Below are positions 8,058 through 30,786 of a stretch of 32,000 nt of DNA, piece by piece. The first letter of the stretch is position 1; each line of letters begins with the position of its first letter. Below the pieces are notes generated by a model. That model searched no databases and was not told the DNA's origin. It saw nothing but the letters and a program-made list of their open reading frames with translations. The stretch comes from Thiotrichales bacterium 19S9-11 (GTDB taxonomy: Bacteria; Pseudomonadota; Gammaproteobacteria; Francisellales; Francisellaceae), in NCBI GenBank assembly GCA_021713395.1, contig JAKJJT010000014.1, positions 2,628 through 34,627 on the forward strand, in the 5' to 3' direction. The position numbers and the translations under genes are program-made.

Positions 8058-8178
8058 AGTATTACACTCCTTGCTTTAGTGACTTAGTTAGAAATTTTTA
8101 ATACTTAGAGTTAGAATAAAAGATATTAATCTGGGATAAATCGCGACAGAAATCTCTATAACCGTAGGACTTAATTAA

Positions 8179-8523: not shown

Positions 8524-8536
8524 TATAGAATAATAA

Positions 8537-16659: not shown

Positions 16660-16670
16660 CAAAAAGCTCC

Positions 16671-17672
16671 CTATATATAACAACAATTACGTTTTTTAAA
16701 TATTAAAAAGCCATAATTATCACCCGCTGCTGGGTTAACATGACCTGTTTCAAATGTTGCAACTAGATGACCAAAAGGATGACACTGTGCTGCATCTGGA
16801 ATGGTATTTACCAACTGATAGCGATATCTTGACTTAGGCATAATAGGTGTTGGATATTGAAAACAAAGTGCACCATTAAAAGCACCTCTACCAATACTAT
16901 CCCAAACCAAACCCTCTCGGTGCATTTTAAAATCCATGCGTTCAGCCATTAAAACAGCTGCTTGCATTGGTGATGTTTGAAATGGTGTATTACCCGTTAA
17001 TGGATAAGTCGATCCTTGAGACCCCATGCACCAAAACAAAGCATCAATAGCTGTAAAATCATCTGTTGTGGTAATTAATGAATCAGCTGCACAAGCTTCT
17101 TGTGTTATAGGGTTTGAGAATAGTGTTGCTTCTGGGTTTAAGATAAAACCTAGTTCATCATCATTCCAAGTTGGATCAAGCTCTGTCATATAGGCTAAAT
17201 CAAAATCACCTATTTGAAGACATGCAATCGATGTAATAATCTCAAGCCAATAAACAACAGGATACTTATACCAATGAACATAATAAAATGCCCCTCTGCC
17301 ATCAGCTGCTGGCATTTCACTTCCACCAAGTCCTGCATCACTTATATCTAATTTAGTACCCATATTTACCATGCAATATGGATCTCTTGTAACATCAACT
17401 AAGGCATAAGGCTCCCAATACCCAAAACTCACACCTACCCTTTCATAAACAGGCGGTGGTGCTTCACAGGCACAAACGGGGCTTTTAGGATTTGCCGTAT
17501 CTGGGTACTCCCCTGCTGCAACAGGCACATTGCCAATTGTCATAGGAAACATACAGTCCCAACAAATATCAGTAATTGGATTAATAAAATGTCCTGCACA
17601 CGTAGATGCAAAGCTAGATGAGAAAAGTAAACTTAATAAACCAAATATAAATAATCTAAATTTGTTATCCAT
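16671..17672 (-). CDS. traU: TraU
   Basis: Signal peptide followed by CAGHFINPITDICWDCMFPMTIG, the hallmark TraU N-terminal block. Confidence 0.93.
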   Translation of the reverse strand: MDNKFRLFIFGLLSLLFSSSFASTCAGHFINPITDICWDCMFPMTIGNVPVAAGEYPDTANPKSPVCACEAPPPVYERVGVSFGYWEPYALVDVTRDPYCMVNMGTKLDISDAGLGGSEMPAADGRGAFYYVHWYKYPVVYWLEIITSIACLQIGDFDLAYMTELDPTWNDDELGFILNPEATLFSNPITQEACAADSLITTTDDFTAIDALFWCMGSQGSTYPLTGNTPFQTSPMQAAVLMAERMDFKMHREGLVWDSIGRGAFNGALCFQYPTPIMPKSRYRYQLVNTIPDAAQCHPFGHLVATFETGHVNPAAGDNYGFLIFKKRNCCYI

Positions 17673-17685
17673 CTTCTAAAGTTCC

Positions 17686-18312
17686 TTAAATAAATTCCTT
17701 TCGACCGATTACTGTTATTTTCCAATTCAAATGATCTTGTTCAGCAATCGCTGGGACGTGAGTAATATGAAGCTTTTGAGTAATTAGTCCTTTCTGATCG
17801 TAATAAATACGACCAAATATTTTCGAAAGTTTTTTTATCTCGCCACCTGTTAAAATGAACTTCACCCAATGATATTTTTGATAATTATTCTTTACCCATC
17901 GAACCTGATCTTTATCGTCACCATTAAAGAAAAATAAAACTTCTTTTAAATGAACCGTTCTAAATGGATTAACTGTTGTACCTGCTTTTACCAAAACACG
18001 TCCTGTATGATCTGTAATATTTTTATTTAACTGAATTGATGGATTGACTGTAAAAGTCTCTGTATCACTTTGAGTGCTTAACGGTAAAATTGGAGGATGA
18101 TTAACATTATGTGCCACACGTCTTTTGGCTTCTTCTTCATAATGAGCTAACTCCCCTGTCTCTTTCATGTGATTTAGACGATCATATATAAAATCTCTAA
18201 AGTCCTCTTCTTGAACTTCAAATGTCTGACCACCCTGCTCTAAAATTTTTGCATAAAGCATTTGATTAAAGAGGACTAAAAGAAGCATTAAAATAAAACG
18301 AACATAAATCAT
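17686..18312 (-). CDS. traW: TraW
   Basis: 208 aa secreted protein located between trbI and traU. Called on size and position, with weak recalled similarity. Confidence 0.75.
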   Translation of the reverse strand: MIYVRFILMLLLVLFNQMLYAKILEQGGQTFEVQEEDFRDFIYDRLNHMKETGELAHYEEEAKRRVAHNVNHPPILPLSTQSDTETFTVNPSIQLNKNITDHTGRVLVKAGTTVNPFRTVHLKEVLFFFNGDDKDQVRWVKNNYQKYHWVKFILTGGEIKKLSKIFGRIYYDQKGLITQKLHITHVPAIAEQDHLNWKITVIGRKEFI

Positions 18313-18653
18313 AACGCATGCTCCATTGTATTTAAGTTTTCTTGAATGATTTCATCTGTTAGATCAATACCTGATGCATCATAAAGTGTTGTTGCAGTAA
18401 TAAGATTGATATGATGAGCTTCTCCATAAGCTTTAATGGTGATAGCTAAATTAGCATTATAAAGCTTAATAAAGGCCTCTTGCTCAGGCGCTTTCATCTT
18501 TGATGCAATCAGCTTAATTGGTTTATTAATTACCTCTTTCATATTAATAAAACCAATTGTTTGATGGTTACTTTTAGCCAATAAAAAACCAACCCATAGA
18601 GCGAGCAATATGCCTGCTACAAGTAAAATTATTTTTGAAGATAGCTTAGACAT
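18309..18653 (-). CDS. trbI: TrbI (F-type)
   Basis: About 114 aa. Single N-terminal TM segment, located between traC and traW. Start placed at MSKLSS (ATG 18651-18653), overlapping the traC stop by 8 nt. Confidence 0.65.
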   Translation of the reverse strand: MSKLSSKIILLVAGILLALWVGFLLAKSNHQTIGFINMKEVINKPIKLIASKMKAPEQEAFIKLYNANLAITIKAYGEAHHINLITATTLYDASGIDLTDEIIQENLNTMEHAL

Positions 18654-21192
18654 ACATATCTCCATAATGTGCTTTTGCAACCTGATTAACTGCTTCTAAT
18701 AATGGCACTCCCTTCTTTTTAAGTGCTTCAACAGCTGAATAATCCTCACCTGCTGAAGACATCATCACTAAAGTAAATGGATCAACAAATAACCGCTGAA
18801 AAGTTTGTAAATTTTGGCCTTTGATTAAAACTTGAGAGTAACCTGCTTCTTTTGCTTGAGGAAACTTCTTTAAAATATTTAATTCATACTCATTAAACAT
18901 CTCATGTTCTTTATTAAACTGATCAAGTTTGCTTGAGTCTTGTAAAAGGATAAGTTTAAGTGCTGCGTTATCCCACAATGCCTTTGCTGCTGGGAAGTCT
19001 GTATAGTCACTGATACCTTGAGTAATCGTAACAAACGATGCATTATGACGCCTGCCTGTTCTAAAGCCTTCAATTAAAAACTCAATTGCGCGCGGACTAC
19101 CAGCAAAAAACTTCCAACCTTCATCCATTATGAATTGTTTTTTGATTGAGCGATCTAATAAATAAACTGTATTCTTAACTTGATTAAATGCTGACATTAA
19201 TACAGGTGAAACTAGACTTTTCTTATCCTTGATCTCTAAAAGATCAATCACAATAAAACGAGATTTAGGATCAAATTTAGATCGTTCATTAAAAACACGA
19301 CCATGCTCTGCTTTCGATGTAAATGGATCAATATTTTCTGCTAATGCCTTTGCACTAAAAAAGCGCCCTTGATCAAGATTTCTTAATGACTCTTGAACAT
19401 CATCAACTAAAGCAGCATTCCCTTTCCTCTGAAAAGCATCCAAAATAGCAGCTCTAAGAGCAGCAGTTTGATTATTAGATGCCTTTTCTTTAGAGCATGT
19501 TATTTCTTCAAATAGGTCAATTAAGTTATCAATTGAATCATAAATGTTTCTAACATATGTAAATGGGTTTAGAGCAAGATTACTGTATTCTAAATAAACA
19601 CCATTAACTGCCTCACAAAGTTTTCTATAAGACCCACCAATATCAATGATATAAACATACCCACCATCAAATAATGTTGATAATGCCATCATTTGCATTA
19701 AGAAACTTTTGCCAGCACCTGATGTGCCTGTTACCGCTGCATTAAAATTAGTACCCCAAAATCCAGAAAATGGGTCTACTAGCGAAAACTGTCCTCGCAT
19801 TGAAGGTAACAATATACCTTTATCTTGGCCATGCCAATCACTTAAAACAGGTAGGTACTGCGTTGCATTCCATGAGGATATATGATGCATCATCATCGGT
19901 AATGCAAAGTCATACTGCAAATGATTGGTAAACATAAAAGGCATAGATGCTAAAAAATAAGGCATTTGCATACGCTTACAAACTGATAACTTAATCCCAG
20001 GCAAGTTAAATGCATTTTTTGCTTTTTCTACATCTACTTCTCGTTTTGAAGGTTTAGAGAATAAAACTACGTTATATAACATTTTACAGGAACGTGTTTT
20101 TTGCTTCGTTAAGTCTTCACGAAAGCTCTTCCACTGTTGTGCCTGCTCTTCTGTTCCTGCAACTAAAGTTGCATAATCACTTCTAGATTTTTTAGTTAAA
20201 TCTCGAGTTTTTCTATTTGCTTTAGATAATGCTTTACCATGCTCATCTAATTTATAAATTGCAGTAATAATATGATTACAGTTAATGTGGTAAAGCGTAT
20301 CAAAGATATTGGAAGTATTATTAATATTCTCCCAAAGCCTAAAACTTGATGGTAGCTTATCAATTGTTAAGACACTAATATCTGTTTGATAGGATTTTCC
20401 ATTTCTATCATCACCTGACAAACGTAAATGATCTTTCTCTCTATCATCAACACTTAGTTCAAAGGAACGATCATTAACCTGGTATTTTAAGAGATTATCT
20501 TCTTGATGGCTTATTTTAGAAGGATAAATATCATCTGTGTTATGCGCTGTGTAAAACTGAATTAAATGTAAAAAATCGACAGAGTCACACAATTTAAAGC
20601 TAATACTTGATGCAGTTAATGCTGCCTCGAAAGATACTTTAAATCGATCAAAAGCTATGATTAAATCATTTTCAGATTGATTCTTTTTAGCAGTATCAAT
20701 AACTAAATAAATTTCTGTTTGAGTAAGTCTTGTTTCAGTCTCATTTCTAGTTTTAAACCCAGAAACACAGGCTTTTTTATAATAAGCTTCTAATGAATCA
20801 CCTAATGCAGATAGCTCTCCTAAGTTTTTATCTCTAAATTGACTAGCAAAGCGATCAATTTTATTACCCAATTGATTATGCTTAACATGAATGGCTGTAA
20901 TGATAAATTCATCACTTATTTTAGTCCGAATAATTCCATCTAACTGCTCAGCAATTGCCTCATTAGCTCCAGTTAATGGACTAATTTGATAGATAATCCC
21001 TGCATTATGTTTATTAAAAAATACATGCGATCGATCATCAAAATACTCATAAGGTAATTCATCAGAAAATGATGGGTATCGGTAATCTGAAATATCAGTT
21101 GTTGCTTTATGATAAGAAGCATCTTCAACTGAATCAATTAAACCAAAGTATTGACCAATTTTTGTCGTAATCTCTTTAACCTGACCTAACAT
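18646..21192 (-). CDS. traC: TraC, VirB4-family T4SS ATPase
   Basis: 848 aa. Walker A VTGTSGAGKSF, Walker B FIMDEGWKF. Typical size and position. Confidence 0.95.
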   Translation of the reverse strand: MLGQVKEITTKIGQYFGLIDSVEDASYHKATTDISDYRYPSFSDELPYEYFDDRSHVFFNKHNAGIIYQISPLTGANEAIAEQLDGIIRTKISDEFIITAIHVKHNQLGNKIDRFASQFRDKNLGELSALGDSLEAYYKKACVSGFKTRNETETRLTQTEIYLVIDTAKKNQSENDLIIAFDRFKVSFEAALTASSISFKLCDSVDFLHLIQFYTAHNTDDIYPSKISHQEDNLLKYQVNDRSFELSVDDREKDHLRLSGDDRNGKSYQTDISVLTIDKLPSSFRLWENINNTSNIFDTLYHINCNHIITAIYKLDEHGKALSKANRKTRDLTKKSRSDYATLVAGTEEQAQQWKSFREDLTKQKTRSCKMLYNVVLFSKPSKREVDVEKAKNAFNLPGIKLSVCKRMQMPYFLASMPFMFTNHLQYDFALPMMMHHISSWNATQYLPVLSDWHGQDKGILLPSMRGQFSLVDPFSGFWGTNFNAAVTGTSGAGKSFLMQMMALSTLFDGGYVYIIDIGGSYRKLCEAVNGVYLEYSNLALNPFTYVRNIYDSIDNLIDLFEEITCSKEKASNNQTAALRAAILDAFQRKGNAALVDDVQESLRNLDQGRFFSAKALAENIDPFTSKAEHGRVFNERSKFDPKSRFIVIDLLEIKDKKSLVSPVLMSAFNQVKNTVYLLDRSIKKQFIMDEGWKFFAGSPRAIEFLIEGFRTGRRHNASFVTITQGISDYTDFPAAKALWDNAALKLILLQDSSKLDQFNKEHEMFNEYELNILKKFPQAKEAGYSQVLIKGQNLQTFQRLFVDPFTLVMMSSAGEDYSAVEALKKKGVPLLEAVNQVAKAHYGDMYV

Positions 21193-21197
21193 CGCCT

Positions 21198-21662
21198 CTA
21201 CTCCACATCATCATAATCATTTTCAGTGATTTCTTTTTGTGGCAGAGATGACCAATGTGATTCTTCTACTACAAACGTAATGTAGCTTGATCCGTGATAG
21301 TTGTTATCTTCATCCTGCCAAGGCGCAACCCATAATCTTGCATCAATTTCTTCAGTTCGTAATGGCTGACCAGAATAAGGTGTTGGGCTATTAAATCCTG
21401 ACCAAGCAACATGATATGATTTTTGCTGTATGCTTCTGTTATCAGAATCGACATCTAATGGCTTTTTTTCATCTTCTACATACTCCCCATTAGCACTAAA
21501 TCGCCCTTCACTAATCATTTGATTAACCTGATCAACTGATTGACAGCCTCCCTGTTCAGTAAAAGGACAGCGTGCATCATCAGAAAACATACTTGCACAA
21601 CCAGATAAAGTGATTGCTAATGTAAAAAGAGCTAATAGTTTTATTCTTTTAAATTTAAACAT
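21198..21662 (-). CDS. traV: TraV outer-membrane lipoprotein
   Basis: Lipobox LSGCASM followed by the conserved paired cysteines (RCPFTEQGGCQS). Confidence 0.8.
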   Translation of the reverse strand: MFKFKRIKLLALFTLAITLSGCASMFSDDARCPFTEQGGCQSVDQVNQMISEGRFSANGEYVEDEKKPLDVDSDNRSIQQKSYHVAWSGFNSPTPYSGQPLRTEEIDARLWVAPWQDEDNNYHGSSYITFVVEESHWSSLPQKEITENDYDDVE

Positions 21663-23119
21663 TATAAGTTCACTCCTTGACTAACTGGACTAAATATTGA
21701 CTGATTAACTGCCTGTTGATTGGCATTAAACTCTGCATTTGCTTTAGACTGTGCTTCTCTTTGAACATTCTTTGAAGTATCAGAAATAGCATTTGCAAAC
21801 GGGTTATTGACAAACCCTGTTGAGACTTTTTCAACCAAATGATTTGATAGGTTTTTACTATCTGAGTCATTAACTGATTTCATAGACTCAAAATCTTGAT
21901 GTGCTTGATCAATCCAAAAGCCTGCTTGAAATAATACAGTTACCTTTCTTCCTGCTCTAACAACAACAATCGGGTGATAAATATTAGCAATAGACATTAG
22001 ATAATCTGTAATTTTGTCTGATGGTTGACTAATACCTTCTCCAATACCACTTTTTAACGCTGATGTTGGTGTAGTTACGACTCCTGATCCTGTAACAGTC
22101 GATGTTTGCCCAGAAGATGATAAACCATCACCAATTCCAGAAATTAAACCTGCAACTGCTGCGTATCCTAAAATTGGTTTTGCTTTTAATACTGGAACTC
22201 CTCGAATATCTTGCATGGCATCTAAATCAAAAACTGAGCCATAAACTTTCTTTTCAAATGAGTATTCCTTACCTGCACAAGATAATGTTTCAAGATGAAC
22301 AACATCACTATCAGATGATAAATCGCCATAGGTTGAACCTAATACAACACAGTTTTTTAAATGAGAGGTTTTACCATTAGGCATCGTCCCATTTGTTGTT
22401 AATCTTATCGCAACTGTACCTGTGTTTTTGGTTGAATTAGTTCCTGCATCACCAATAATACCTGTAATTAAATAACCATTAGCAAATGTCCCAGCCCAAA
22501 CATAATTTTTAGGCGTGCGCTTCATTTGTTCCTTTTTATCTTCTGGATATGAAATATTAACGTCTTCTATACCTAGACTACTTACAATCGGTGTTTGAGT
22601 TATAGCTTGATAAGGCATTGCTACAGATTTACTTGGTGCTACGCCTTCATGCTTTTCAGATACTGAGTTAATTGACTTTGGAGTAACCTTATTTTGTTTT
22701 GTAGTTTTAGCATGTTTTACTAAATACAGTTCTCTTTTAAGGTTTTTAAGCTCCTTCTGCATTGCTTCCATTTGCTTAAGCGTTTGCACGTTAAGCTTTT
22801 CTGAATGATTTGAGCTTTCTGCCTTTTTCTGTTTTTCTAACTCAGAAAGTTTACTATTAGTCCTATCTAGTTTTTCTGTAATTGCTTCTATTTTTGCATG
22901 ATCATAGGCAAGGCCAACGTTATCATCAAAAGCACCTGAAAAATGGATTGGTTTTGATGACTTATGTGGCTTATGTTTCTGTGTACTATAAAAGTAAAAT
23001 CCAATGCCAATTAAGATAAAAACAATAACAATAGAAAGTGTTTTTAATTGCTCTATACGTGCCTTTTTATTAGCGTTTCCAGAGCGTTCAAATAACTTTT
23101 TCAGTTCATTCTTAAACAT
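21662..23119 (-). CDS. traB: TraB (VirB10-like)
   Basis: 485 aa. N-terminal TM segment, coiled-coil region, C-terminal beta-rich domain. Lies between traK and traV. Confidence 0.85.
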   Translation of the reverse strand: MFKNELKKLFERSGNANKKARIEQLKTLSIVIVFILIGIGFYFYSTQKHKPHKSSKPIHFSGAFDDNVGLAYDHAKIEAITEKLDRTNSKLSELEKQKKAESSNHSEKLNVQTLKQMEAMQKELKNLKRELYLVKHAKTTKQNKVTPKSINSVSEKHEGVAPSKSVAMPYQAITQTPIVSSLGIEDVNISYPEDKKEQMKRTPKNYVWAGTFANGYLITGIIGDAGTNSTKNTGTVAIRLTTNGTMPNGKTSHLKNCVVLGSTYGDLSSDSDVVHLETLSCAGKEYSFEKKVYGSVFDLDAMQDIRGVPVLKAKPILGYAAVAGLISGIGDGLSSSGQTSTVTGSGVVTTPTSALKSGIGEGISQPSDKITDYLMSIANIYHPIVVVRAGRKVTVLFQAGFWIDQAHQDFESMKSVNDSDSKNLSNHLVEKVSTGFVNNPFANAISDTSKNVQREAQSKANAEFNANQQAVNQSIFSPVSQGVNL

Positions 23120-23124
23120 TACAT

Positions 23125-23829
23125 CTATCCCTTAGCAACGATTGTATAAACAAAGCCAACTTGATCTTTAAATAAGATTTGTTTACTTAAGCTAACGGCT
23201 CTAACACCCTCTCGCCAAAACTTACGCTCAGGTAAAGAAACATGATGTTCTGATTGATTTTTTATCTCATAAATAAAACCGCTAAGCTTTGCAGATTCAT
23301 AAACTTTTATAAGTTTCATTGATGTACCTGGATAACCTACAAATTCTTTTGAATCCGTAACCTCTTGGCTTCTTATTCCTTCTGATTGTTCACCTTTAAT
23401 CATTGATCGCACCATCTTTTGTAAGAGCTTTAAGTAACCTGTATTCTTTTCCCAGCGGGCATCTTTCTCTGTGATATTATTTGCAATCATTTGAATGGTT
23501 TGACCTATATCAGAAACAGGCATCACTAGTGCTGAAAAGTGGTGGCCTTTTTGAGTACTAAAAAATAAAGTAAACGGCTTTTGCGAGTAAACAGGTTTGA
23601 AGTAAAGCGAACCATCTTTACTTAATGCTTTATCAAAAATAAAAGTGCCTTCAGGCGCAACATGTTTAATAATCTTATCGTGTTTAACAAAAAGACGATT
23701 AATGTTGGTAATTGATGCTTTAAATGAAACTGTACTATTATCGTTAAAATGAATAATACTCGCCTCTTCTGATGCAAAAGCAATACTTGATAACAACAAG
23801 CAAGCACCAACAGTAATTTTCTTAAGCAT
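23125..23829 (-). CDS. traK: TraK (VirB9-like/secretin-like)
   Basis: 234 aa with a signal peptide, located between traE and traB. Confidence 0.75.
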   Translation of the reverse strand: MLKKITVGACLLLSSIAFASEEASIIHFNDNSTVSFKASITNINRLFVKHDKIIKHVAPEGTFIFDKALSKDGSLYFKPVYSQKPFTLFFSTQKGHHFSALVMPVSDIGQTIQMIANNITEKDARWEKNTGYLKLLQKMVRSMIKGEQSEGIRSQEVTDSKEFVGYPGTSMKLIKVYESAKLSGFIYEIKNQSEHHVSLPERKFWREGVRAVSLSKQILFKDQVGFVYTIVAKG

Positions 23830-24388
23830 GACCTTTTACCTCACTAATAGAAACAATGGTTAATAACCCTAAGTGATAGGAAAAATGAATTTGATAAGTC
23901 TTTTTAACAGGTTTTAAAATAATTCCATCATCAACCCGTTGTAACTGCCCTGTTACCTGTACAACAAGAGATTGACTGTCAACCAATGGCTTTTTATTTT
24001 GATAAAAGACACTACTCATCTTACGTCTTTTAACTGACTCTATTTCTTCATTAAGCGTCTTTTTTAAAGCTTCTTTCTGATCAACTGATACAAGATTGAG
24101 TAACTTCGTATATTGCTTTGAAATCGTATCTGATGACCAAGTAAGTCTTGACTGCATAATATCTGTTGCCATATCAGATAAATAAGACGGTGAAGCATTA
24201 AAACTACTTAAACTAAATGATTCACTCGTATGTGTTGGTATATAAATGCGCTCTTTAACAAAAAATGAATAAAAAGAAAGACCTGACAATACCAATACAA
24301 CAACAACGAGAGATAAACAGGTTGTTATTAATATTCGAATTAATTGCCTATTTTTAGTTAAGACATCATCCCGCAGTTGAGTTTTCAT
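23822..24388 (-). CDS. traE: TraE
   Basis: 188 aa with a single N-terminal TM segment, collinear with F TraE. Confidence 0.8.
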   Translation of the reverse strand: MKTQLRDDVLTKNRQLIRILITTCLSLVVVVLVLSGLSFYSFFVKERIYIPTHTSESFSLSSFNASPSYLSDMATDIMQSRLTWSSDTISKQYTKLLNLVSVDQKEALKKTLNEEIESVKRRKMSSVFYQNKKPLVDSQSLVVQVTGQLQRVDDGIILKPVKKTYQIHFSYHLGLLTIVSISEVKGHA

Positions 24389-24397
24389 ATTAAATCC

Positions 24398-24688
24398 TTA
24401 TCTTAAATAAACGCGATTGGCTGAGTTAGGTGATTTTCTTAAAATCAATTTGGTTATTTGATTGGGTAACATCCAATAGATAAAGGAATAGAAAAAACGT
24501 ATTCCTTCCCCTCCAAATTTCAGATGAAATATGAGACTAATAACAGCACCAAATAAAAATAAAGAAATGCCTAAACCCGTTAATAAGCCAATAACTGTTA
24601 AACCTATACAGGGAAGCCCCGTTACAATTGGAATTCCAAATAGCTTTGGTTCATCAGATAGCATAAAAGTATGATATTCTCTTTGCAT
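24398..24688 (-). CDS. traL: TraL
   Basis: 96 aa. Has LFGIPIVT (compare WFGLPLDE in F TraL) and a YWMLP motif. Confidence 0.8.
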   Translation of the reverse strand: MQREYHTFMLSDEPKLFGIPIVTGLPCIGLTVIGLLTGLGISLFLFGAVISLIFHLKFGGEGIRFFYSFIYWMLPNQITKLILRKSPNSANRVYLR

Positions 24689-24702
24689 TATTTGATTCCT
24701 AA

Positions 24703-25014
24703 CTAAAGAAGAAAGAAATTTACAAAAAGCATCAATACAACAATGCCTAATAACGCATATATTTTTTTTGTTGTGATATAAGTTACAATGGCGACTATGA
24801 CCTCACCAATATATACAATTTTTATAAAGTTAGAGTCTTTCCCAAATGTTGCTGACACTGCATCTGCAGCACCATCTAAATAATCCACTCCATCCTCAGC
24901 AAATAGATGGCTAGAAAACAAAAGAAATAAGAACAAAATCAAAATTGTTGCTGGTAAATATCCCATTCCTATACAGTAAGCTTTTAATAACCAATTATTC
25001 ATCTTACTTTTCAT
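24703..25014 (-). CDS. traA: F-type propilin TraA
   Basis: 103 aa. Long leader ending ...HLFA, then a mature part of about 64 aa. AVSATFGKDSNFIKIVYIGEVIVAIVTYITTKKIYALLGIVV parallels F pilin TVKATFGKDSSVVKWVVLAEVLVGAVMYMMTKNVKFLAGFAI. AGGAG RBS present. Confidence 0.85.
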   Translation of the reverse strand: MKSKMNNWLLKAYCIGMGYLPATILILFLFLLFSSHLFAEDGVDYLDGAADAVSATFGKDSNFIKIVYIGEVIVAIVTYITTKKIYALLGIVVLMLFVNFFLL

Positions 25015-25016
25015 AT

Positions 25017-25151
25017 TTAATCTCCTATGGTTTCATACTGATATTGCGAATTGATTTGAGTAACAATGACTGGTTTTACAGGCTTAGCTATCTTTTGATT
25101 TGTGCAGGCTACTAAAAAAATGATCATTGTAATCCCTAAAAATATTTTCAT
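25017..25151 (-). CDS. 44-aa putative lipoprotein (not in the ORF track)
   Basis: Own translation: MKIFLGITMIIFLVACTNQKIAKPVKPVIVTQINSQYQYETIGD with lipobox LVAC. Its ATG overlaps the TGA of the upstream ORF (ATGA coupling), and its stop lies 2 nt before the traA ATG. Confidence 0.5.
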   Translation of the reverse strand: MKIFLGITMIIFLVACTNQKIAKPVKPVIVTQINSQYQYETIGD

Positions 25152-25438
25152 TTACTAATGCCTTTGTTTCTTCTACTTATGACTTCATCAAAAAACTCAA
25201 CTAGTAAAACTCCAAAACCCAGACAAAGTGGTAATGAAATTAACGTTTGAATAAGTAAAATTACTGCCTGTAATAATGCATCTGCATGAATGACTTTTTC
25301 TTTAGATAAAATATTGACTAAGACTGCTGCATCATTTCCTAAAATAAATTTCATAATTAATGTTGCTAAAATAAATCCAATTGCAAACTTCACAGTTGAA
25401 CTTAAACGTTTTTTTGACTTGTTTTTTACTTCTATCAT
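25148..25438 (-). CDS. small inner-membrane protein (2 TM), first gene of the tra operon
   Basis: 96 aa with two hydrophobic helices, translationally coupled to the downstream lipoprotein ORF. Confidence 0.6.
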   Translation of the reverse strand: MIEVKNKSKKRLSSTVKFAIGFILATLIMKFILGNDAAVLVNILSKEKVIHADALLQAVILLIQTLISLPLCLGFGVLLVEFFDEVISRRNKGISK

Positions 25439-25591
25439 TATCTGATCTCCTTATTTTTAGACAAAAAGTCCCCTACCCATTACAAAATGGGCTTTTAAAA
25501 ATTCCATTGGTTTAAAATAAATGACTAAAAACTAACTTACGTTTTCCATGAATAGCTCCTTGAATTTTTTAATTTGATTCTTGGTTAACTT

Positions 25592-25906
25592 TTATTGCTT
25601 GTGCATTTCCACCCATTTCTCAATGTCTTCACGTGCCCAAAACACTCGGTTACCTATAGATTTATTTTCTGGAAATTTTCCCATTCTAATATGCCTATAA
25701 ATCCAATCTGATTTTCTTCCAATAATTGCTTCTACATCACGAGCAGAAAGCAGCTCTTTTTTAATCCCAGTTGTACCTTTTGCTGTTTCTAATTTTTTGA
25801 CCTTATCTGCTAAAAACTCAATCATTTGGGTTAGTCTCTCAATATTCCGACTAATTGGTTGAACTTCAGCTGAAACAACCCCCCTAAAAGTTTCTTCAAA
25901 ACTCAT
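25592..25906 (-). CDS. AlpA-family (MerR-like HTH) regulator / excisionase-type protein
   Basis: C-terminal half LLSARDVEAIIGRKSDWIYRHIRMGKFPENKSIGNRVFWAREDIEKWV matches the AlpA/Xis pattern. ATGA overlap with the upstream gene. Confidence 0.75.
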   Translation of the reverse strand: MSFEETFRGVVSAEVQPISRNIERLTQMIEFLADKVKKLETAKGTTGIKKELLSARDVEAIIGRKSDWIYRHIRMGKFPENKSIGNRVFWAREDIEKWVEMHKQ

Positions 25907-26658
25907 GCTACTACTCCTACCATTTGAACTTTCCTTTTATCATGCCCTGTAAATCTTAAGAATAAACCCGATTCTAGAATCCTTGACATTAACCTCTGCC
26001 CAATGAACTTCTCCAGTTCTTTCCTATCTAGATTAGAAATAATAATTGTTGGCAACATTGCTTCATATCTTTCGTTAATAACGTCAAACAGCTGCAAGTG
26101 ATCAGAACTTTTTCCTCTTATTAGGTCAATTTCATCAATAACTAACAAATCATAATCTGCTAATTCATTTTTAATTTGTTGTTCTGTTTTTTTACTAGCA
26201 GAAGTATATGTCTCATTAATGCTACTAATTAGATTATAAGCTGTTAGTATTTTGGCTTTTAATTTATGTTTTATAATAACTTCTCTAACGATACTAGAAG
26301 CAAGATATGTTTTACCACTACCTGTTGTCCCTATCATTACTATGCTTGAGCCTAGTTCTTTCATTTGTTGAAATGCACTAGAGAACTGAACAGCAGCTTT
26401 TAAATTGATAGTGTCTTCTTTATTCTGCGGCTTAAAGTTTTCAAAACTTGCTGATCTAAACCTCTTCTTTATGCCAGAGCGTGATAATAATCTTGAAACT
26501 TGGTATGCATTTTCTCTAGCATGCTTACTCTCAAGATCGCATTCAGAACAAGAATATAAGTATCCTATTTTATGCTTTTCGCAGTACTGCTTTTTGGAGT
26601 CTAATTTTGATTGTATCCTTTCAATCTGTTTCGAAATATTTTGAATATTAGTCATCAT
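25903..26658 (-). CDS. DnaC/IstB-like AAA+ helicase loader
   Basis: Walker A GTTGSGKTYLA and Walker B LLVIDEID. 251 aa, downstream of a replisome-organizer gene. Confidence 0.85.
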   Translation of the reverse strand: MMTNIQNISKQIERIQSKLDSKKQYCEKHKIGYLYSCSECDLESKHARENAYQVSRLLSRSGIKKRFRSASFENFKPQNKEDTINLKAAVQFSSAFQQMKELGSSIVMIGTTGSGKTYLASSIVREVIIKHKLKAKILTAYNLISSINETYTSASKKTEQQIKNELADYDLLVIDEIDLIRGKSSDHLQLFDVINERYEAMLPTIIISNLDRKELEKFIGQRLMSRILESGLFLRFTGHDKRKVQMVGVVA

Positions 26659-27511
26659 AACTCCTTCCTTGAGTATTAAATATTTCTCCCATTACTGCTT
26701 CATTGTGTTTTAAAAGCTCATCATCTGAATAACTCCATGCATCATCAAAAACTTTATTAACTGATGAGTTATATTTATTTTCCTGCTTTCCATGGTTCTT
26801 AATTGGGTAAACTGATTTCCAAGAATTAATAATTGAGTTTTCGAGCATCTGCTTTTGTTCATTCAATGGATGTTTGTTTAGCTCATTCACTATTAAGTTA
26901 ATTACTCTATCCGTATTGTTTGCTTTAAGTTGAGTTCTTACATTTAAAAATTCTTCAAAAAGTTTATGTAGTGATAAATCAATCAAATCAAAAATAGTTT
27001 TTTCTTTTTGTATATTTTTTCTTTTTTCTATCTCTTTACTCTTATCTATATCTATCTCTTTCTCTGGCGTTGCATTTTTGTTGCATTGGCGTTGCATCAG
27101 CGTTGCATCAGCGTTGCATTGCAACGCTTCTGGCTGACATTTGTTCAATTTCTTTGCTCTAAGGTTGCGTGCTCGTATTGTACTTTGTGTTTCACTACCA
27201 ATTAAATCTATTACATTAGTTACTAAATATTTGTTAGACTCCACCTCATCAAGAAGACCTGTACGTAGCATATATTCTAGTGTAACTTCAACATTATCAT
27301 CATCTTCATCAAGGATAAGAGAAAGTTCACTTGAAAAATCTTTTTCTAATCCTTCAAAATAAATAAAACCTTGATTTTTTATCGATAAAAGCATTATTTT
27401 TTGAAAAATAATTGTATAAGTATCCCCACCAGCAATTTTACGCAATTTTTTAATCTTTGGCTCAGAAAAAAAACCTTCCTTAAGTTTTAGCCAAAAGTAT
27501 CGTTTATTCAT
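26648..27511 (-). CDS. phage-type replisome organizer / replication initiator (DnaD-like)
   Basis: N-terminus YFWLKLKEGFFSEPKIKKLRKIAGGDTYTIIFQKIMLLS is the typical replisome-organizer N-domain pattern. An acidic linker contains the iterons. Confidence 0.8.
   Translation of the reverse strand: MNKRYFWLKLKEGFFSEPKIKKLRKIAGGDTYTIIFQKIMLLSIKNQGFIYFEGLEKDFSSELSLILDEDDDNVEVTLEYMLRTGLLDEVESNKYLVTNVIDLIGSETQSTIRARNLRAKKLNKCQPEALQCNADATLMQRQCNKNATPEKEIDIDKSKEIEKRKNIQKEKTIFDLIDLSLHKLFEEFLNVRTQLKANNTDRVINLIVNELNKHPLNEQKQMLENSIINSWKSVYPIKNHGKQENKYNSSVNKVFDDAWSYSDDELLKHNEAVMGEIFNTQGRSYDD
27067..27127. promoter_or_regulatory. iteron array (candidate replication origin) inside the initiator gene
   Basis: GCGTTGCAT at 27067, (GTTGCAT) at 27078-27086, then 27089, 27100 and 27111, giving an exact 11-bp period. 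An inverted copy TGCAACGC at 27120-27127 forms a palindrome. An AT-rich tract lies immediately adjacent (about 26990-27066). Confidence 0.7.
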
Positions 27512-27894
27512 AAATAGACTCCTTATTTATTTCAGCAATAGAAATTTTTAAAGGTGCTATAAGACAAACTGATCGAATCCTCTTGAATATGAATAAAGTC
27601 ATTTACTGAACAGCAAATATCTTTTATCATGGATGAACTGATCGTTGGTCAGTGCCCGGTGAGCTTTATAAATGTTTAGCGACCTGAATAAAGCTCATCA
27701 AAAATTTCACAATTTAAATTTAACTTCCTTGATTTCCTTTTGTATTTTACTCATTGAGCATCTAAAATCTTAATGCATAAGAATGGCATTTTCAACAAAT
27801 ATTATTCAATTTTATTTGTCAGTATTTTTACATTGTTATCCATAGAAAAATAGTATATATTTTACAAATTGTGGCAGAATTTAAGAGGAATAAA

Positions 27895-28338
27895 ATGCCA
27901 AATTTTTCTATTTATAAGGATAAAGTTCGTCCATTTGAAGTTGATTTTGAAAATATTGTACATCATGCAAACTACTTAATATGGTGTGAAAACTCTAGAT
28001 TTAATCTTTTTGAAACTATTATAGGAACACCAATTGAAAAATTTAAATCACAACAAAATACGGATATCATAATTCTTGAGGCTAACGTTAAATACTTAAA
28101 GTCTTTTAAACTAGGTGACCACTACTATGCTAAATCACGAATTGAAAAAGTAAGTAACTTAAAATTTAAATTCATTGATTACATATACAACAACTCTAAT
28201 GAGTTATGTATAAAAGGAGAATTTATTTCAGTTGGAATTGATTCAACTACTAAAAAACCTAATAGAGCTTTAATATCAAAACTAGAAAGCTATTTCTCAG
28301 CTAGCTTTTCTGATGAAAATTACGCGGTAAGTGCATAA
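27895..28338 (+). CDS. 4HBT/YbgC-like hotdog-fold acyl-CoA thioesterase
   Basis: VRPFEVDFENIVHHANYLIWCENSRFNLFE matches the YbgC-type N-terminal motif. I prefer the ATG at 27895 (AGAGGA RBS 5 nt upstream) over the GTG at 27871. Confidence 0.75.
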   Translation: MPNFSIYKDKVRPFEVDFENIVHHANYLIWCENSRFNLFETIIGTPIEKFKSQQNTDIIILEANVKYLKSFKLGDHYYAKSRIEKVSNLKFKFIDYIYNNSNELCIKGEFISVGIDSTTKKPNRALISKLESYFSASFSDENYAVSA

Positions 28339-28872
28339 AATTTCGCTAAAATTTATTATTTGTATTTTTTCAGACGTCGTATATCTAATAGATACATGCT
28401 TTTGAGTTAATCGTTGAGCGAAACTAATAATATTTTTGTTTTTTAATTTTATGATATATATTCCCTCTTCCTTCCAGCTCAGCCTTTCTTTCTTTCCCCC
28501 AATAAAGTCTCCTTTATTTAAAAGAGGTTTCATATAGTCATTATCCATGCTCAATACAAAAGATTCTTGATTATTGGACTTAAATGACTCTATATCTAAT
28601 AATGCATCATTTGGAGCACTTAAATTTAAGCAACTTATTGGCGACACTCCTGATCCATCAAAGAGCCAATCACTAGATACTTGCAATCCAAGCTCTAAAA
28701 ATATCTCACTTAATTTATCACATTTCTTTTTAGAAAGTTTCTCAGACTTTTCCCAATTTCTAAATGTCGTCTCTGGGATATTAAATTTAATAAATTCAGA
28801 TCTCGGAACTTTTAAAAGTGTTTTTCTTATAAAATTTACTCTATTTCCTGAATTATTCACATTACAGTCCAA
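28297..28872 (-). CDS. CI/LexA-like repressor: XRE-type HTH + S24-like domain with substituted catalytic residues
   Basis: N-terminal HTH ending ...SSDWLFDGSG. In the C-terminal domain SMDNDYMKP occupies the place of the GDSM-x-P block (Ser replaced by Tyr), and AQRL occupies the place of KRL (Lys replaced by Gln). Confidence 0.65.
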   Translation of the reverse strand: MDCNVNNSGNRVNFIRKTLLKVPRSEFIKFNIPETTFRNWEKSEKLSKKKCDKLSEIFLELGLQVSSDWLFDGSGVSPISCLNLSAPNDALLDIESFKSNNQESFVLSMDNDYMKPLLNKGDFIGGKKERLSWKEEGIYIIKLKNKNIISFAQRLTQKHVSIRYTTSEKIQIINFSEILCTYRVIFIRKAS

Positions 28873-29416
28873 TCATTAATTTTCTTGTTAAATCTATCAA
28901 TTTTTTTGTCTCTGAAACAGGCATTTTAGCACAAAAAAAATGATCATCAACTGCTCCACCAATCCCAGATATTTCAATATAATTAATTGATTTATAAGCC
29001 AAACCAAATCCATTTCCATATTTTCCATACATTTTACGTTCAACATCAACATCCTTAGATTCAGGCGTTATAATTGGGCATGAGTTCCAGTGTATTAGTT
29101 TGGGAACAATCATCTTATTATCTAATACTGAAAATGCATGTTGATATAAGTGATCATAATTAATCAATTCATGTTTTATATAATAGTCATTCCAATCTTT
29201 ATTACTTGAAAAATAATATTTTCTTTTCAAGTTATTATCTATTATGAATAATGAAAAAAAGTTTAACCTATACTTTGATTTCAATCGATAAAACTCATTA
29301 GTTACTTCACAGTTATCATTTAAAAAATGCCTAATAAAAAGATACTTATTTTTAGTAACTTCAATAGTATTATCGATAACCTTTTCTTCATTAGATAAAA
29401 ATATATGTCTAGACAT
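28862..29416 (-). CDS. LuxR-type autoinducer-binding domain protein without a DNA-binding domain
   Basis: 184 aa. DWNDYYIKHELINYDH reproduces the W-x3-Y-x8-D spacing of TraR/LasR. VERKMYGKYGNGFGLAY parallels the ER-x-FY...G...G block. No GerE HTH. Overlaps the downstream repressor gene by 11 nt. Confidence 0.5.
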   Translation of the reverse strand: MSRHIFLSNEEKVIDNTIEVTKNKYLFIRHFLNDNCEVTNEFYRLKSKYRLNFFSLFIIDNNLKRKYYFSSNKDWNDYYIKHELINYDHLYQHAFSVLDNKMIVPKLIHWNSCPIITPESKDVDVERKMYGKYGNGFGLAYKSINYIEISGIGGAVDDHFFCAKMPVSETKKLIDLTRKLMIGL

Positions 29417-29451
29417 ACTGTAAACTTCTATGTTTCACTCATCCATAAATA

Positions 29452-29465
29452 ATGATATCTATCAT
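29452..29465. promoter_or_regulatory. candidate operator palindrome upstream of the regulator pair
   Basis: ATGATA-tc-TATCAT, with perfect 6-bp arms, 36 nt upstream of the 29416 start. Confidence 0.3.
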
Positions 29466-29548
29466 ATACGACTCAATATCAAACTGGCAATTTTTTTGTA
29501 TAAATATTTTAATTTATGCCATTTTATATCAACAAAGAGTTTAGCTAA

Positions 29549-30751
29549 TTAGGAGCTTTTAATATCATCTAAGTAATTAGCCCAAACCTGCATCATCCTC
29601 ACTCGTTCATCTAAATATTCTGCGTGATTATAAGCTGCTCTAACTTTATTCCGTTCTTCATGTGCCATTTGTTTCTCAATAATATCCCCATTAATTACAA
29701 ACTTACTCTTATTATTGTTTAACAATGTTGTAGCTAAATGCCTAAAGCCATGAGCTGTCATCTTAACTTTGTTCACTCCATCATACCCTAAACGCTTTTG
29801 AATGACCTTCCGTAGAGTTTCTACATGAAGGTGTGATCCCCTTCTTTCAGAATAAAATACATATCGATTATGACCATTAATCTGTTTTAAGCTTTCTAGA
29901 ATATCCAGAGCTTGGTTAGACAAAGGTATAATATGTTTTCTTTTCATTTTCATTTTTTCAGCTGGAATAATCCAAAGTTTGTTATCAAAATTAATTTCAG
30001 ACCATTCTGCTTCTACAATATTACTTGGCCGTAAAAATACTAAAGGTTGTAGTTTCAAAGCTGCCCCTGAAATAGGATCACCTTGATAGCTATCAATAGA
30101 TCTTAATAGTTGACCAATACTTTCAATGTCATCAATAAAAGCAAAATGTTTAGATGCCGGTTTTTTAACATAACCTCTAAAGGCAACAGCAGGGTTGTTA
30201 TTACAAGCTTCTTCCAACATAGCAAAATTAAATACATTTTCAATAATACCTCTAATGCGCATTGCAGTCTCATAAACCCCTTTAGATGTGATTTTATCAA
30301 GGATGTTTTTTATATCTTTAACCGTAATTAAATGTATCTTTTTATGAGATAAAAAAGGCACAATGTGCCGATCAATCCGATTTTTAATATCTTTCTCAAC
30401 TTTCTTACTAGTATAGTTCGCCTTGTTTTTATCAAACCATCTCCACAGATAATAACCAAAAGTATCATAGCTATTCTGAGCCATTTTATTCTTCTTTTTT
30501 TCATTACAAGGATCTTTGCCATCATTAATCGCTATGCGGGCTAAGTCTCTTACTTTACGTGCGTCTTTAAGTGAAGTGTCAGGATAAGAACCTATAGACA
30601 TAGTCTTACGTTTACCATCAAACCTATAATCAAAGCGCCACAGTAGTCCTCCAGATGGCTTAACCAGAATATATAACCCTTTTTCATCTGAAATTTTATA
30701 TTGTTTTTCTTTTACTTGAATTGATCTTAAGTGTGCTATAGTTAATGGCAT
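29549..30751 (-). CDS. int: P4-type tyrosine integrase
   Basis: MPLTIAHLRSIQVKEKQYKISDEKGLYILVKPSGGLLWRFDYRFDGKRKTMSIGSYPDTSLKDAR is the typical N-terminal arm-binding domain. The C-terminus has HGFRH and a final Y. Start moved to ATG 30751, which has an AAGGTAAGGA RBS. Confidence 0.92.
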   Translation of the reverse strand: MPLTIAHLRSIQVKEKQYKISDEKGLYILVKPSGGLLWRFDYRFDGKRKTMSIGSYPDTSLKDARKVRDLARIAINDGKDPCNEKKKNKMAQNSYDTFGYYLWRWFDKNKANYTSKKVEKDIKNRIDRHIVPFLSHKKIHLITVKDIKNILDKITSKGVYETAMRIRGIIENVFNFAMLEEACNNNPAVAFRGYVKKPASKHFAFIDDIESIGQLLRSIDSYQGDPISGAALKLQPLVFLRPSNIVEAEWSEINFDNKLWIIPAEKMKMKRKHIIPLSNQALDILESLKQINGHNRYVFYSERRGSHLHVETLRKVIQKRLGYDGVNKVKMTAHGFRHLATTLLNNNKSKFVINGDIIEKQMAHEERNKVRAAYNHAEYLDERVRMMQVWANYLDDIKSS

Positions 30752-30786
30752 GTCCTTACCTTTAAAAAATTTATACAACTATGTTA

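What the first reader, a model, noticed from the sequence alone, without database searches (positions are those of the whole stretch)
28297..29465. Translationally coupled pair: a LuxR-type ligand-binding domain without HTH, plus a CI-like repressor whose S24 domain has lost its catalytic Ser and Lys
The 184-aa ORF shows the hallmark spacing of acyl-HSL receptor domains: W-x3-Y-x8-D in DWNDYYIKHELINYDH, and an ER-x-MY...G-x-G block. It ends without a GerE HTH.

Its stop overlaps by 11 nt the start of a 191-aa XRE-HTH/S24-like protein. In that protein the GDSM-x-P block reads DNDYMKP and KRL reads QRL, so RecA-type self-cleavage looks impossible.

One hypothesis is that the ligand-binding protein is the sensor or anti-repressor that replaces SOS cleavage. 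That would couple the element's induction (int, replication, tra) to a small-molecule signal. No luxI-type synthase is visible, so the ligand would be exogenous or unconventional. A perfect palindrome ATGATAtcTATCAT (29452-29465) upstream is a candidate operator.
Basis: partly seen in the sequence, partly recalled or inferred. Interest (0 to 1): 0.7.

Follow-up and report, generated by a model that had tools for sequence, protein, structure and literature searches.

The report
Split LuxR-type sensor, repressor, thioesterase module
Next to the integrase of a conjugative element sits a conserved three-gene cassette: a LuxR-type signal-binding domain with no DNA-binding part, a CI/LexA-like DNA-binding protein that cannot cut itself, and a small thioesterase. 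It looks like an undescribed small-molecule switch carried by plasmids and integrative elements.

Summary
The two ORFs are real, conserved genes of Thiotrichales bacterium 19S9-12.

**184-aa protein.** It is a remote homologue of the LuxR autoinducer-binding domain.
- It gets no Pfam hit itself, but 8 of 18 distant relatives hit PF03472, two above threshold.
- Profile-profile comparison with LasR, TraR, SdiA, RhlR, LuxR and QscR gives 90.7% probability.
- W75, Y79, D88, W110 and G136 align with LasR W60, Y64, D73, W88 and G113.
- RefSeq names relatives "autoinducer binding domain-containing protein".
- It has no HTH.

**Partner protein.** It is an XRE-HTH plus S24-like protein, 93.6% probability against LexA/CI. 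The catalytic Ser is Tyr, there is no Lys and no Ala-Gly site.

- The partner most likely starts at GTG 28860, giving TAA-n-GTG rather than an 11-nt overlap.
- The "perfect palindrome" is a 6+2+6 inverted repeat. It is not above chance and not conserved.

**New finding.** The convergent hotdog thioesterase (27871-28338) is a third conserved component. All three genes co-occur in 12 lineages, in several gene orders. They sit on plasmids and ICEs of Thiotrichales, Legionellales, Enterobacterales and Aeromonadales, often beside tra or rep genes.

The sensor/anti-repressor mechanism remains inference. I found no description of this module in the literature.

The parts
28862..29416 (-). HTH-less LuxR-type ligand-binding-domain protein (184 aa; NCBI L3V79_09245)
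   Evidence: hhalign of family alignment A3 against LuxR receptors gives 90.7%, E 1.2e-6, over 115 columns. W75/Y79/D88/W110/G136 align with LasR W60/Y64/D73/W88/G113. 8 of 18 distant relatives hit PF03472, two above the gathering score. QscR is the only PDB sequence hit. The top Foldseek hits are RhlR, LasR and SdiA ligand-binding domains.
28297..28860 (-). Partner: XRE-type HTH + S24 (LexA/CI)-like C-terminal domain, catalytically dead (187 aa from GTG 28860; NCBI L3V79_09240)
   Evidence: phrog_4 repressor E 6.6e-7. PF00717 E 0.005. hhalign against LexA/CI/UmuD/C2/434 cI gives 93.6%, E 2e-7. HTH_19/HTH_3 hit in 6 and 5 of 12 family members. Y109 occupies the LexA S119 column, and no Lys is present in any register. 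There is no AG/CG site. Foldseek top hits are 186 CI and LexA C-terminal domains.
27871..28338 (+). Hotdog-fold (4HBT_2, YbgC/FadM-like) thioesterase, convergent with the partner gene; third conserved member of the module
   Evidence: PF13279 E 9.7e-13. TIGR00051 E 3.9e-16, below cut-off. PDB relatives are 4-hydroxybenzoyl-CoA thioesterase and YbgC. It co-occurs with the LBD and partner genes in every lineage with enough sequence.
28858..28864 (-). Stop/start junction TAA-t-GTG (translational coupling of the LBD and partner genes)
   Evidence: Junction sequences in the window and in L007, L005, L020 and L008.
28297..28338 (.). 42-nt convergent overlap of the 3' ends of the partner and thioesterase genes
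   Evidence: Coordinates. The same 42-nt overlap occurs in L007 and in the ERZ4119665 contig; L008 has 7 nt.
29417..29548 (-). int-LBD spacer with the best promoter-like site (-35 at 29490-29485, -10 at 29466-29461) and the 6+2+6 inverted repeat at 29452-29465. Candidate promoter/operator only.
   Evidence: The repeat is not above chance and not conserved.
29549..30778 (-). Context: tyrosine integrase of the element
   Evidence: Arm-DNA-bind_3, Phage_int_M and Phage_integrase.
5365..27511 (-). Context: replisome organiser, DnaC-like ATPase, AlpA-like HTH, then F-type transfer genes (TraA, L, E, K, B, C, N, G, TraT, coupling protein)

Best explanation
The locus is a three-gene, self-contained small-molecule switch carried by mobile elements.

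**Proposed mechanism**
- The 184-aa protein is the sensor. It is a LuxR-type ligand-binding domain that has no DNA-binding domain of its own.
- The 187-aa protein supplies the DNA binding through an XRE helix-turn-helix. Its protease-dead S24-like domain serves only for oligomerisation and docking.
- The two are made in fixed proportion by coupled translation and act as a split receptor. Ligand occupancy of the sensor changes, through protein-protein contact, whether the partner occupies its operators.
- The hotdog thioesterase is the enzyme tied to the ligand. Most likely it releases an acyl-derived signal from an acyl-CoA or acyl-ACP. Relatives extend the pathway with a FabG-like reductase, a methyltransferase and an OYE-type reductase.
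- The output is probably the module's own promoter(s) plus the neighbouring replication/transfer genes of the host element.

**Shown**
- Homology of all three proteins.
- Loss of the catalytic dyad and the cleavage site.
- Tight stop/start coupling.
- Co-occurrence of the three genes across deep divergence and changing gene order.

**Inferred**
- The physical interaction and its sign (anti-repressor or co-repressor).
- The nature and origin of the ligand.
- The target genes.
For: **LBD homology**
- Transitive Pfam hits and hhalign at 90.7% with five of the six LuxR hallmark residues aligned.
- Negative-control comparisons give 0.1-0.2%.
- QscR is the only PDB sequence hit.
- Foldseek top hits are LuxR-type ligand-binding domains.
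- RefSeq names for the relatives.

**Partner**
-.

**Module conservation**
- LBD, partner and thioesterase are found together in 12 lineages.
- These are the window, L007, the ERZ4119665 contig, L008, L010, P. salmonis p1PS1, Serratia PWN146p1, Aquicella plasmid 4, F. novicida pFNE_1, the Dongshaea plasmid, L015 and L023.
- LBD identity falls to about 20% and at least five gene orders occur.
- Partner and thioesterase co-diverge with the LBD: 31% and 33% against 26% for L008.

**Coupling**
- Stop/start junctions.

**Position**
- The module sits beside tra or rep genes in the window, Serratia (divergent from traY), Aquicella, P. salmonis and Dongshaea.

**Enzymes**
- FabG-like SDRs and a methyltransferase lie next to the module in relatives.

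**Host taxa**
- Francisella and Legionella lack canonical LuxI/LuxR systems (bioRxiv 10.64898/2026.01.11.698852). No luxI is reported in P. salmonis (PMC8573184).
Against: - No experiment or complex model links the LBD protein to the partner.
- The window protein itself has no Pfam hit, and its AlphaFold model is of low confidence (pLDDT 57).
- No conserved operator was found.
- The cassette also occurs on small Rep3 plasmid contigs with no tra genes in view, so control of transfer cannot be its universal role.
- The window lacks the reductase and methyltransferase seen in relatives, so a thioesterase alone may not make a specific signal.
- The conserved Asp is replaced by Cys in most distant relatives, so ligands may differ.
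Confidence: 0.4

Rival explanations
1. The module is a cargo metabolic regulon. The LBD protein and HTH partner sense a fatty-acyl compound such as an acyl-CoA or a free fatty acid. They regulate only the thioesterase (and, in relatives, the reductase/methyltransferase) operon. They have no role in transfer, excision or replication of the element.
For: - The thioesterase is in the same operon as the regulators in Serratia, Aquicella, L010 and Dongshaea.
- The cassette occurs on Rep3 plasmid contigs with no tra genes in view.
- The upstream context of the LBD gene varies freely.
Against: - It is restricted to plasmids and ICEs.
- It repeatedly sits at the head of tra or rep operons.
- A lone 155-aa thioesterase is an odd sole target for a two-protein sensor.
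Confidence: 0.25
2. The LBD protein is an anti-repressor that binds an exogenous AHL. It inactivates the non-cleavable CI-like repressor and so induces int/rep/tra, replacing SOS cleavage. The thioesterase is irrelevant.
For: - The W75/Y79/D88 trio that contacts AHL in LasR and TraR is retained in the window clade.
- Non-cleavable CI-like repressors inactivated by anti-repressor proteins are established in phage 186 (CI/Tum) and the Gifsy prophages (own knowledge).
- 186 CI is the top structural match of the partner model.
Against: - It ignores the conserved thioesterase.
- The LasR Y56 equivalent is deleted and Pro74 is His.
- The host lineages lack AHL systems.
- The palindrome operator is unsupported.
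- No divergent lytic-type promoter architecture is present: the module and rep/tra genes lie on one strand behind int.
Confidence: 0.15
3. The LBD-only protein is a dominant-negative antagonist or signal sink for a full-length LuxR-type regulator encoded elsewhere in the host, as TrlR is for TraR and CerN for CerM. The adjacent HTH protein would be an unrelated regulator.
For: TrlR and CerN are the only characterised HTH-less LuxR homologues (PMC11655674; PMC13043044).
Against: - No full-length LuxR gene lies near any of the 12 module lineages.
- The partner is adjacent in every informative lineage despite rearranged gene order.
- Several host genera lack LuxI/LuxR altogether.
Confidence: 0.1
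4. The cassette is a toxin-antitoxin or anti-phage defence cassette with an XRE-type regulator, or the LuxR resemblance is spurious.
For: XRE-HTH genes paired with small unknown genes on plasmids are often toxin-antitoxin or defence modules (own knowledge).
Against: - No PADLOC model hits any of the three proteins.
- No phage relatives were found.
- The LuxR-LBD signal is reproducible by four independent routes, with clean negative controls.
Confidence: 0.04

Closest known systems
TrlR (Agrobacterium) and CerN (Cereibacter sphaeroides): LuxR homologues lacking the DNA-binding domain
   Same: A stand-alone autoinducer-binding domain that acts through protein-protein contact rather than by binding DNA (PMC11655674; PMC13043044).
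   Different: TrlR and CerN antagonise a full-length LuxR paralogue and sit in canonical LuxI/LuxR loci. Here the adjacent, co-translated partner is an XRE/S24-like protein. No LuxR or LuxI is nearby, sequence identity to canonical LuxR domains is very low, and a thioesterase is always attached.
TraR/TraI (with TraM) control of Ti-plasmid conjugation, and TraR-QseM/QseC control of ICEMlSym R7A
   Same: A LuxR-type ligand sensor carried by a conjugative element and placed to control transfer genes (own knowledge; PMC13043044 for TraR/TraM).
   Different: Those receptors carry their own GerE HTH, and the signal comes from a LuxI synthase.
Non-cleavable CI-like repressors controlled by anti-repressor proteins: phage 186 CI/Tum and the Gifsy prophage repressors
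   Same: HTH plus a LexA/CI-like C-terminal oligomerisation domain without self-cleavage; control is by a second protein (own knowledge). 186 CI is the top Foldseek hit of the partner model.
   Different: Those anti-repressors are small SOS-controlled proteins, not ligand-binding domains.
PqsE-RhlR of Pseudomonas aeruginosa
   Same: A thioesterase genetically and functionally tied to a LuxR-type receptor (PMC13043044).
   Different: PqsE has a metallo-beta-lactamase fold and binds a full-length RhlR. Here the enzyme is a 155-aa hotdog (YbgC/FadM-like) thioesterase, and no interaction is known.
Phage VP882 VqmA-Phi/Qtip/cI and phage-encoded LuxR receptors (ARM81ld)
   Same: A quorum-type small-molecule sensor on a mobile element that ends in inactivation of a CI-like repressor (own knowledge).
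   Different: Those sensors are complete transcription factors that switch on a separate small anti-repressor gene.

Membership tests
LuxR-type receptors, N-terminal autoinducer-binding domain (Pfam PF03472) | Significant match of the protein itself to PF03472 | tested here: not met
   No PF03472 hit even at E<=1 for the window protein.
LuxR-type receptors, N-terminal autoinducer-binding domain (Pfam PF03472) | Homology detectable through intermediates or profiles | tested here: met
   - 8 of 18 distant relatives hit PF03472. P0027 scores 24.9 and P0029 24.2 bits against a cut-off of 23.
- hhalign of A3 against six LuxR receptors gives 90.7%, E 1.2e-6.
- Negative controls give 0.1-0.2%.
- RefSeq names for the P. 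salmonis and Aquicella relatives.
LuxR-type receptors, N-terminal autoinducer-binding domain (Pfam PF03472) | Six hallmark residues (TraR W57, Y61, D70, P71, W85, G113; PMC11655674) | tested here: inconclusive
   - Five of six are present in the window protein: W75, Y79, D88, W110, G136. Pro is replaced by His89.
- W110 is His in two of the five close homologues.
- D88 is Cys in most distant relatives.
LuxR-type receptors, N-terminal autoinducer-binding domain (Pfam PF03472) | Alpha-beta-alpha sandwich fold of the ligand-binding domain | tested here: inconclusive
   The AF2 model has pLDDT 57 and pTM 0.61, with residues 86-135 unresolved. Foldseek top hits are RhlR, LasR, SdiA, CepR2 and TraR domains, but at E 0.06-0.8 and TM about 0.35.
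LuxR-family transcription factors (full receptor) | C-terminal GerE/LuxR-type HTH DNA-binding domain | tested here: not met
   The protein is 184 aa and ends with the last helix of the ligand-binding-type domain. No HTH model hits it. All 20 relatives found are 160-203 aa or shorter fragments.
LuxR-family transcription factors (full receptor) | Binding of an AHL or other small ligand | not testable with these tools
   Needs purified protein and ligand assays.
LexA/CI/UmuD (peptidase S24) self-cleaving repressors | HTH N-domain plus S24-fold C-domain | tested here: met
   - hhalign of A6 against LexA, lambda CI, UmuD, P22 C2 and 434 cI gives 93.6%, E 2e-7, over 144 columns.
- phrog_4 transcriptional repressor E 6.6e-7.
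- PF00717 E 0.005, below cut-off.
- HTH_19/HTH_3 hit in 6 and 5 of 12 members.
- Foldseek gives 186 CI and LexA C-terminal domains (low-confidence model).
LexA/CI/UmuD (peptidase S24) self-cleaving repressors | Ser nucleophile in G-D-S-M-x-P | tested here: not met
   Tyr109 (187-aa numbering) fills the LexA S119 column. Close homologues have Y, K, N or Y there. Only two distant partners (L022, L023) keep Ser.
LexA/CI/UmuD (peptidase S24) self-cleaving repressors | Lys general base (LexA K156) | tested here: not met
   The aligned residue is Ile145 (MAFFT), Ser146 (hhalign) or Gln149 (KRL/QRL register). It is never Lys in the window clade.
LexA/CI/UmuD (peptidase S24) self-cleaving repressors | Ala-Gly or Cys-Gly cleavage site in the linker | tested here: not met
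   No AG or CG dipeptide occurs anywhere in the window protein or in the linkers of its relatives.
YbgC/FadM / 4HBT class hotdog acyl-CoA thioesterases | Hotdog-fold profile match and the N-terminal catalytic Asp motif | tested here: met
   - PF13279 E 9.7e-13 and PF03061 E 9.8e-7.
- TIGR00051 E 3.9e-16, below its subfamily cut-off.
- PDB relatives are 4-hydroxybenzoyl-CoA thioesterase and YbgC.
- The motif VDFENIVHHANY contains Asp24. Its catalytic role is assigned from my own knowledge of YbgC.
YbgC/FadM / 4HBT class hotdog acyl-CoA thioesterases | Substrate and product | not testable with these tools
   Needs enzymology.

The most novel reading that the evidence does not exclude
This is a previously undescribed cell-cell or metabolite signalling system of mobile elements. 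A hotdog thioesterase (with FabG-like and methyltransferase helpers in some lineages) makes a non-AHL acyl signal. The receptor is split between an HTH-less LuxR-type ligand-binding protein and a protease-dead CI/LexA-like DNA binder. Together they gate transfer or maintenance of plasmids and ICEs in gammaproteobacteria, including Francisella, Piscirickettsia and Legionellales relatives that have no LuxI/LuxR quorum sensing.
Probability: 0.25. Interest if true: 0.85.

Novelty: new variant of a known kind. Interest (0 to 1): 0.68.

Why it matters
LuxR-type receptors are understood as one-polypeptide, ligand-gated transcription factors. The few HTH-less copies known (TrlR, CerN) act as antagonists of full-length paralogues.

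This is a conserved cassette in which the ligand-binding domain is paired with a different DNA-binding scaffold, a CI/LexA-like one that has lost self-cleavage, and with a thioesterase. If the proposed mechanism holds, it would be:
- a new receptor architecture;
- a possible new signal-synthesis route;
- a new way for plasmids and ICEs to time transfer or maintenance.

It occurs in pathogens and relatives that lack classical quorum sensing: Piscirickettsia salmonis, Francisella, and Serratia marcescens plasmids. The Serratia plasmids offer a genetically tractable test bed.

Tried and rejected
- **Direct searches with the 184-aa protein.** Pfam, PHROGs, NCBIfam and PDB sequence searches gave nothing. 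The word-indexed protein search found only 5 close relatives even with a profile.
- **The search for related loci.** A1 and P0016 found nothing in genome or metagenome contigs. A2 found one short contig.
- **AlphaFold models.** Both were of low confidence because the alignments were shallow. The fold matches are used only as supporting evidence.
- **Palindrome as operator.** Rejected as unsupported: chance level 46%, not conserved, no second copy.
- **Shared TGCCATTnTTAT motif.** It lies upstream of the thioesterase in the window and L007, but occurs at chance frequency.
- **Defence or toxin-antitoxin reading.** No PADLOC hits.
- **Prophage origin.** No phage relatives.
- **Legionella lvrR cassette.** The literature search found no linking papers and I did not pursue it.
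Full report
**What is at the coordinates**

The window matches Thiotrichales bacterium 19S9-12. The two ORFs are its L3V79_09245 and L3V79_09240.
- ORF 28862-29416(-) encodes 184 aa.
- The next ORF can be read as 191 aa from TTG 28872, or as 187 aa from GTG 28860.

Both have a handful of homologues at 56-63% identity, with many invariant columns, so they are real, constrained genes.

The N-termini of all close homologues (MNTSG, MKTAG, MQSAG) and the NCBI model fit the GTG start. The junction is then TAA-t-GTG. The homologues show TAATG, TAA|ATG and TAA-t-ATG. The genes are therefore tightly coupled, but the 11-nt overlap is probably an ORF-calling artefact.

**Surroundings**

All of these lie on the minus strand:
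- a tyrosine integrase (29549-30778), immediately upstream of the pair;
- downstream of the pair, a phage-type replisome organiser, a DnaC/IstB-like ATPase and an AlpA-like HTH;
- then an F-type transfer set: TraA, L, E, K, B, C, N, G, TraT and a coupling protein.

This is an integrative conjugative element. A 155-aa hotdog thioesterase (27871-28338, + strand) converges on the partner gene and overlaps it by 42 nt. No luxI, luxR, SDR or methyltransferase gene turned up among the 27 window ORFs scanned; about a dozen tra-region ORFs were not scanned.

**The 184-aa protein**

On its own it matches nothing in Pfam, PHROGs, NCBIfam or the PDB. An exhaustive profile search of 1.84 billion representatives found 21 proteins. 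The full-length ones are all 160-203 aa.

Four routes point to the LuxR autoinducer-binding domain:
- **Transitive Pfam hits.** Of 18 distant relatives, 8 hit PF03472 (Autoind_bind), two of them above the gathering score.
- **PDB sequence search.** A profile of 22 family members finds exactly one PDB sequence, the LuxR-type receptor QscR. The alignment runs across the W...Y...D segment.
- **Profile-profile comparison.** The reference set was LasR, TraR, SdiA, RhlR, LuxR and QscR. The result is 90.7% probability, E 1.2e-6, over 115 columns. W75, Y79, D88, W110 and G136 align with LasR W60, Y64, D73, W88 and G113. Pro74 is His89, and the Tyr56 position is deleted.
- **Fold search.** A low-confidence AlphaFold model (pLDDT 57) has RhlR, LasR, SdiA, CepR2 and TraR ligand-binding domains as its best PDB matches, at weak scores.

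Cross-controls between unrelated profiles give 0.1-0.2%. RefSeq independently names the Piscirickettsia and Aquicella relatives "autoinducer binding domain-containing protein".

The protein has no room for, and no trace of, a GerE HTH. I conclude that it is a divergent, HTH-less LuxR-type ligand-binding domain.

**The partner**

- PHROGs places it with transcriptional repressors (E 6.6e-7), and Pfam gives a sub-threshold S24 hit.
- A 12-member family alignment matches LexA, lambda CI, UmuD, P22 C2 and 434 cI at 93.6% probability over both domains.
- Six and five of the 12 members hit HTH_19 and HTH_3.
- The model's best structural matches are phage 186 CI and LexA C-terminal domains.
- Tyr109 fills the column of LexA Ser119. 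Close homologues have Y, K, N or Y there.
- Ile, Ser or Gln, depending on register, fills the column of Lys156.
- No Ala-Gly or Cys-Gly site exists.

Two distant family members keep the Ser, so the ancestor was probably a true S24 protein. RecA-type self-cleavage is not expected for the window protein.

**The new point: a three-gene module**

In every lineage where the contig is long enough, the LBD-only gene lies next to a homologue of the partner and a 4HBT_2 hotdog thioesterase.

| Lineage | Arrangement or context |
|---|---|
| Window | ICE, between int and rep |
| L007 | Rep3 plasmid |
| ERZ4119665 contig | same three genes |
| L008 | 26% LBD identity; partner 31% (E 1e-25); thioesterase 33% |
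| L010 | TE > LBD > partner |
| P. salmonis p1PS1 | partner > LBD < SDR < TE < OYE < MTase |
| Serratia marcescens PWN146p1 | partner > LBD > SDR > TE, divergent from traY |
| Aquicella lusitana plasmid 4 | partner > TE > LBD, beside RepA and tra |
| F. novicida pFNE_1 | LBD decayed |
| Dongshaea marina plasmid | LBD > partner > TE, upstream of virB genes |
| L015 | thioesterase remnant |
| L023 | partner > LBD > SDR < TE-like |

HMM scans confirm all assignments. Three further relatives that I picked without knowing their context all carried the module.

Conservation through about 20% identity and at least five gene orders argues for a functional unit. The SDRs are FabG-like, and the P. salmonis methyltransferase weakly resembles BioC. 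This suggests an acyl-derived small molecule.

The family was not found in phages or in defence models.

**Promoter and operator**

The best promoter-like site in the int-LBD spacer places its -10 over the inverted repeat at 29452-29465. Against the operator reading:
- the repeat has 6-nt arms;
- 46% of shuffles contain an equivalent one;
- it is absent from the homologous loci;
- it has no second copy in the element.

A second candidate motif was at chance frequency. No operator can be named.

**Mechanism**

The best-supported reading is a split receptor.
- The LuxR-type domain senses a small, probably acyl-derived, ligand connected to the thioesterase.
- Through protein contact it sets the DNA-binding state of the CI/LexA-like partner.
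- The partner's dead S24 domain serves for oligomerisation and docking.
- The output is the module itself and probably the adjoining replication/transfer genes.

Homology, loss of the dyad, coupling and co-occurrence are shown. Interaction, ligand, sign and targets are inferred.

The cassette also occurs on Rep3 plasmid contigs with no visible tra genes. That keeps a "cargo regulon" reading alive (0.25).

**Comparison with what is known**

- HTH-less LuxR homologues are known only as antagonists of full-length paralogues: TrlR and CerN (PMC11655674; PMC13043044).
- A thioesterase partner of a LuxR-type receptor is known only for PqsE-RhlR, which has a different fold (PMC13043044).
- Non-cleavable CI-like repressors controlled by a second protein are known from phage 186 and the Gifsy prophages (own knowledge).
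- Full-text searches found no description of an LBD-only + XRE/S24-like + hotdog-thioesterase module.
- Francisella and Legionella are listed among genera lacking LuxI/LuxR, and P. salmonis has no luxI.

**Verdict**

The fold assignments are supported. The mechanism is plausible but untested, and the locus is more interesting than described because of the conserved third gene and its wide distribution on mobile elements. I rate it a new variant of known kinds, with interest 0.68.

Noticed in passing
window 28297-28338; L007 2572-2613: The 3' ends of the partner gene and the thioesterase gene overlap convergently by exactly 42 nt in the window, in L007 and in the ERZ4119665 contig (7 nt in L008). 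This suggests constrained antisense overlap or transcriptional interference.
   Followed up: partly
L016 (P. salmonis p1PS1) 6567-9774: Convergent on the LBD gene lies an operon of a FabG-like SDR, a hotdog thioesterase, an OYE-family flavin reductase and a BioC-like SAM methyltransferase. It looks like a small fatty-acid-type biosynthetic cluster and is a candidate signal pathway.
   Followed up: partly
L001 8001-9139 (Francisella sp. XLW-1) and L019 4998-5506 (F. novicida pFNE_1): These are decayed copies of the module. In XLW-1 the LBD gene has a replaced C-terminus and is followed by an aminoglycoside phosphotransferase gene instead of the partner. In pFNE_1 the LBD gene is split into two ORFs.
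   Followed up: partly
L008 3021-3449 and 6043-6624: This Rep3 plasmid contig carries a second, acyl-ACP-thioesterase-like hotdog gene upstream of the LBD gene. It also carries a further 193-aa weak-HTH_3 protein downstream of the module.
   Followed up: no
alignment A3, column of window D88: The Asp that contacts the AHL amide in LasR and TraR is kept only in the window clade plus P0012 and P0013. Most distant relatives have Cys there (LINxCPIY), which hints at a different ligand chemistry.
   Followed up: no
window 31186-31597 (-) and 1632-2579 (-): Two short adjacent ORFs (62 and 71 aa) lie beyond the integrase. They have no Pfam hit and look like fragments of a disrupted gene. At the other end of the window there is a YhgA-like transposase (PF04754) and a GFA-family gene (1170-1583). 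No tRNA gene is in the window, so the element's attachment site was not identified.
   Followed up: no
window 28574-28879 (+): A 101-aa ORF lies antisense to the partner gene. It is most likely spurious, because the minus-strand frame is the conserved one.
   Followed up: no
window 27660-27697: A perfect 10-nt inverted repeat, TGAGCTTTAT/ATAAAGCTCA with an 18-nt spacer, lies in the divergent thioesterase/replication-gene spacer. It is the strongest inverted repeat near the module.
   Followed up: no
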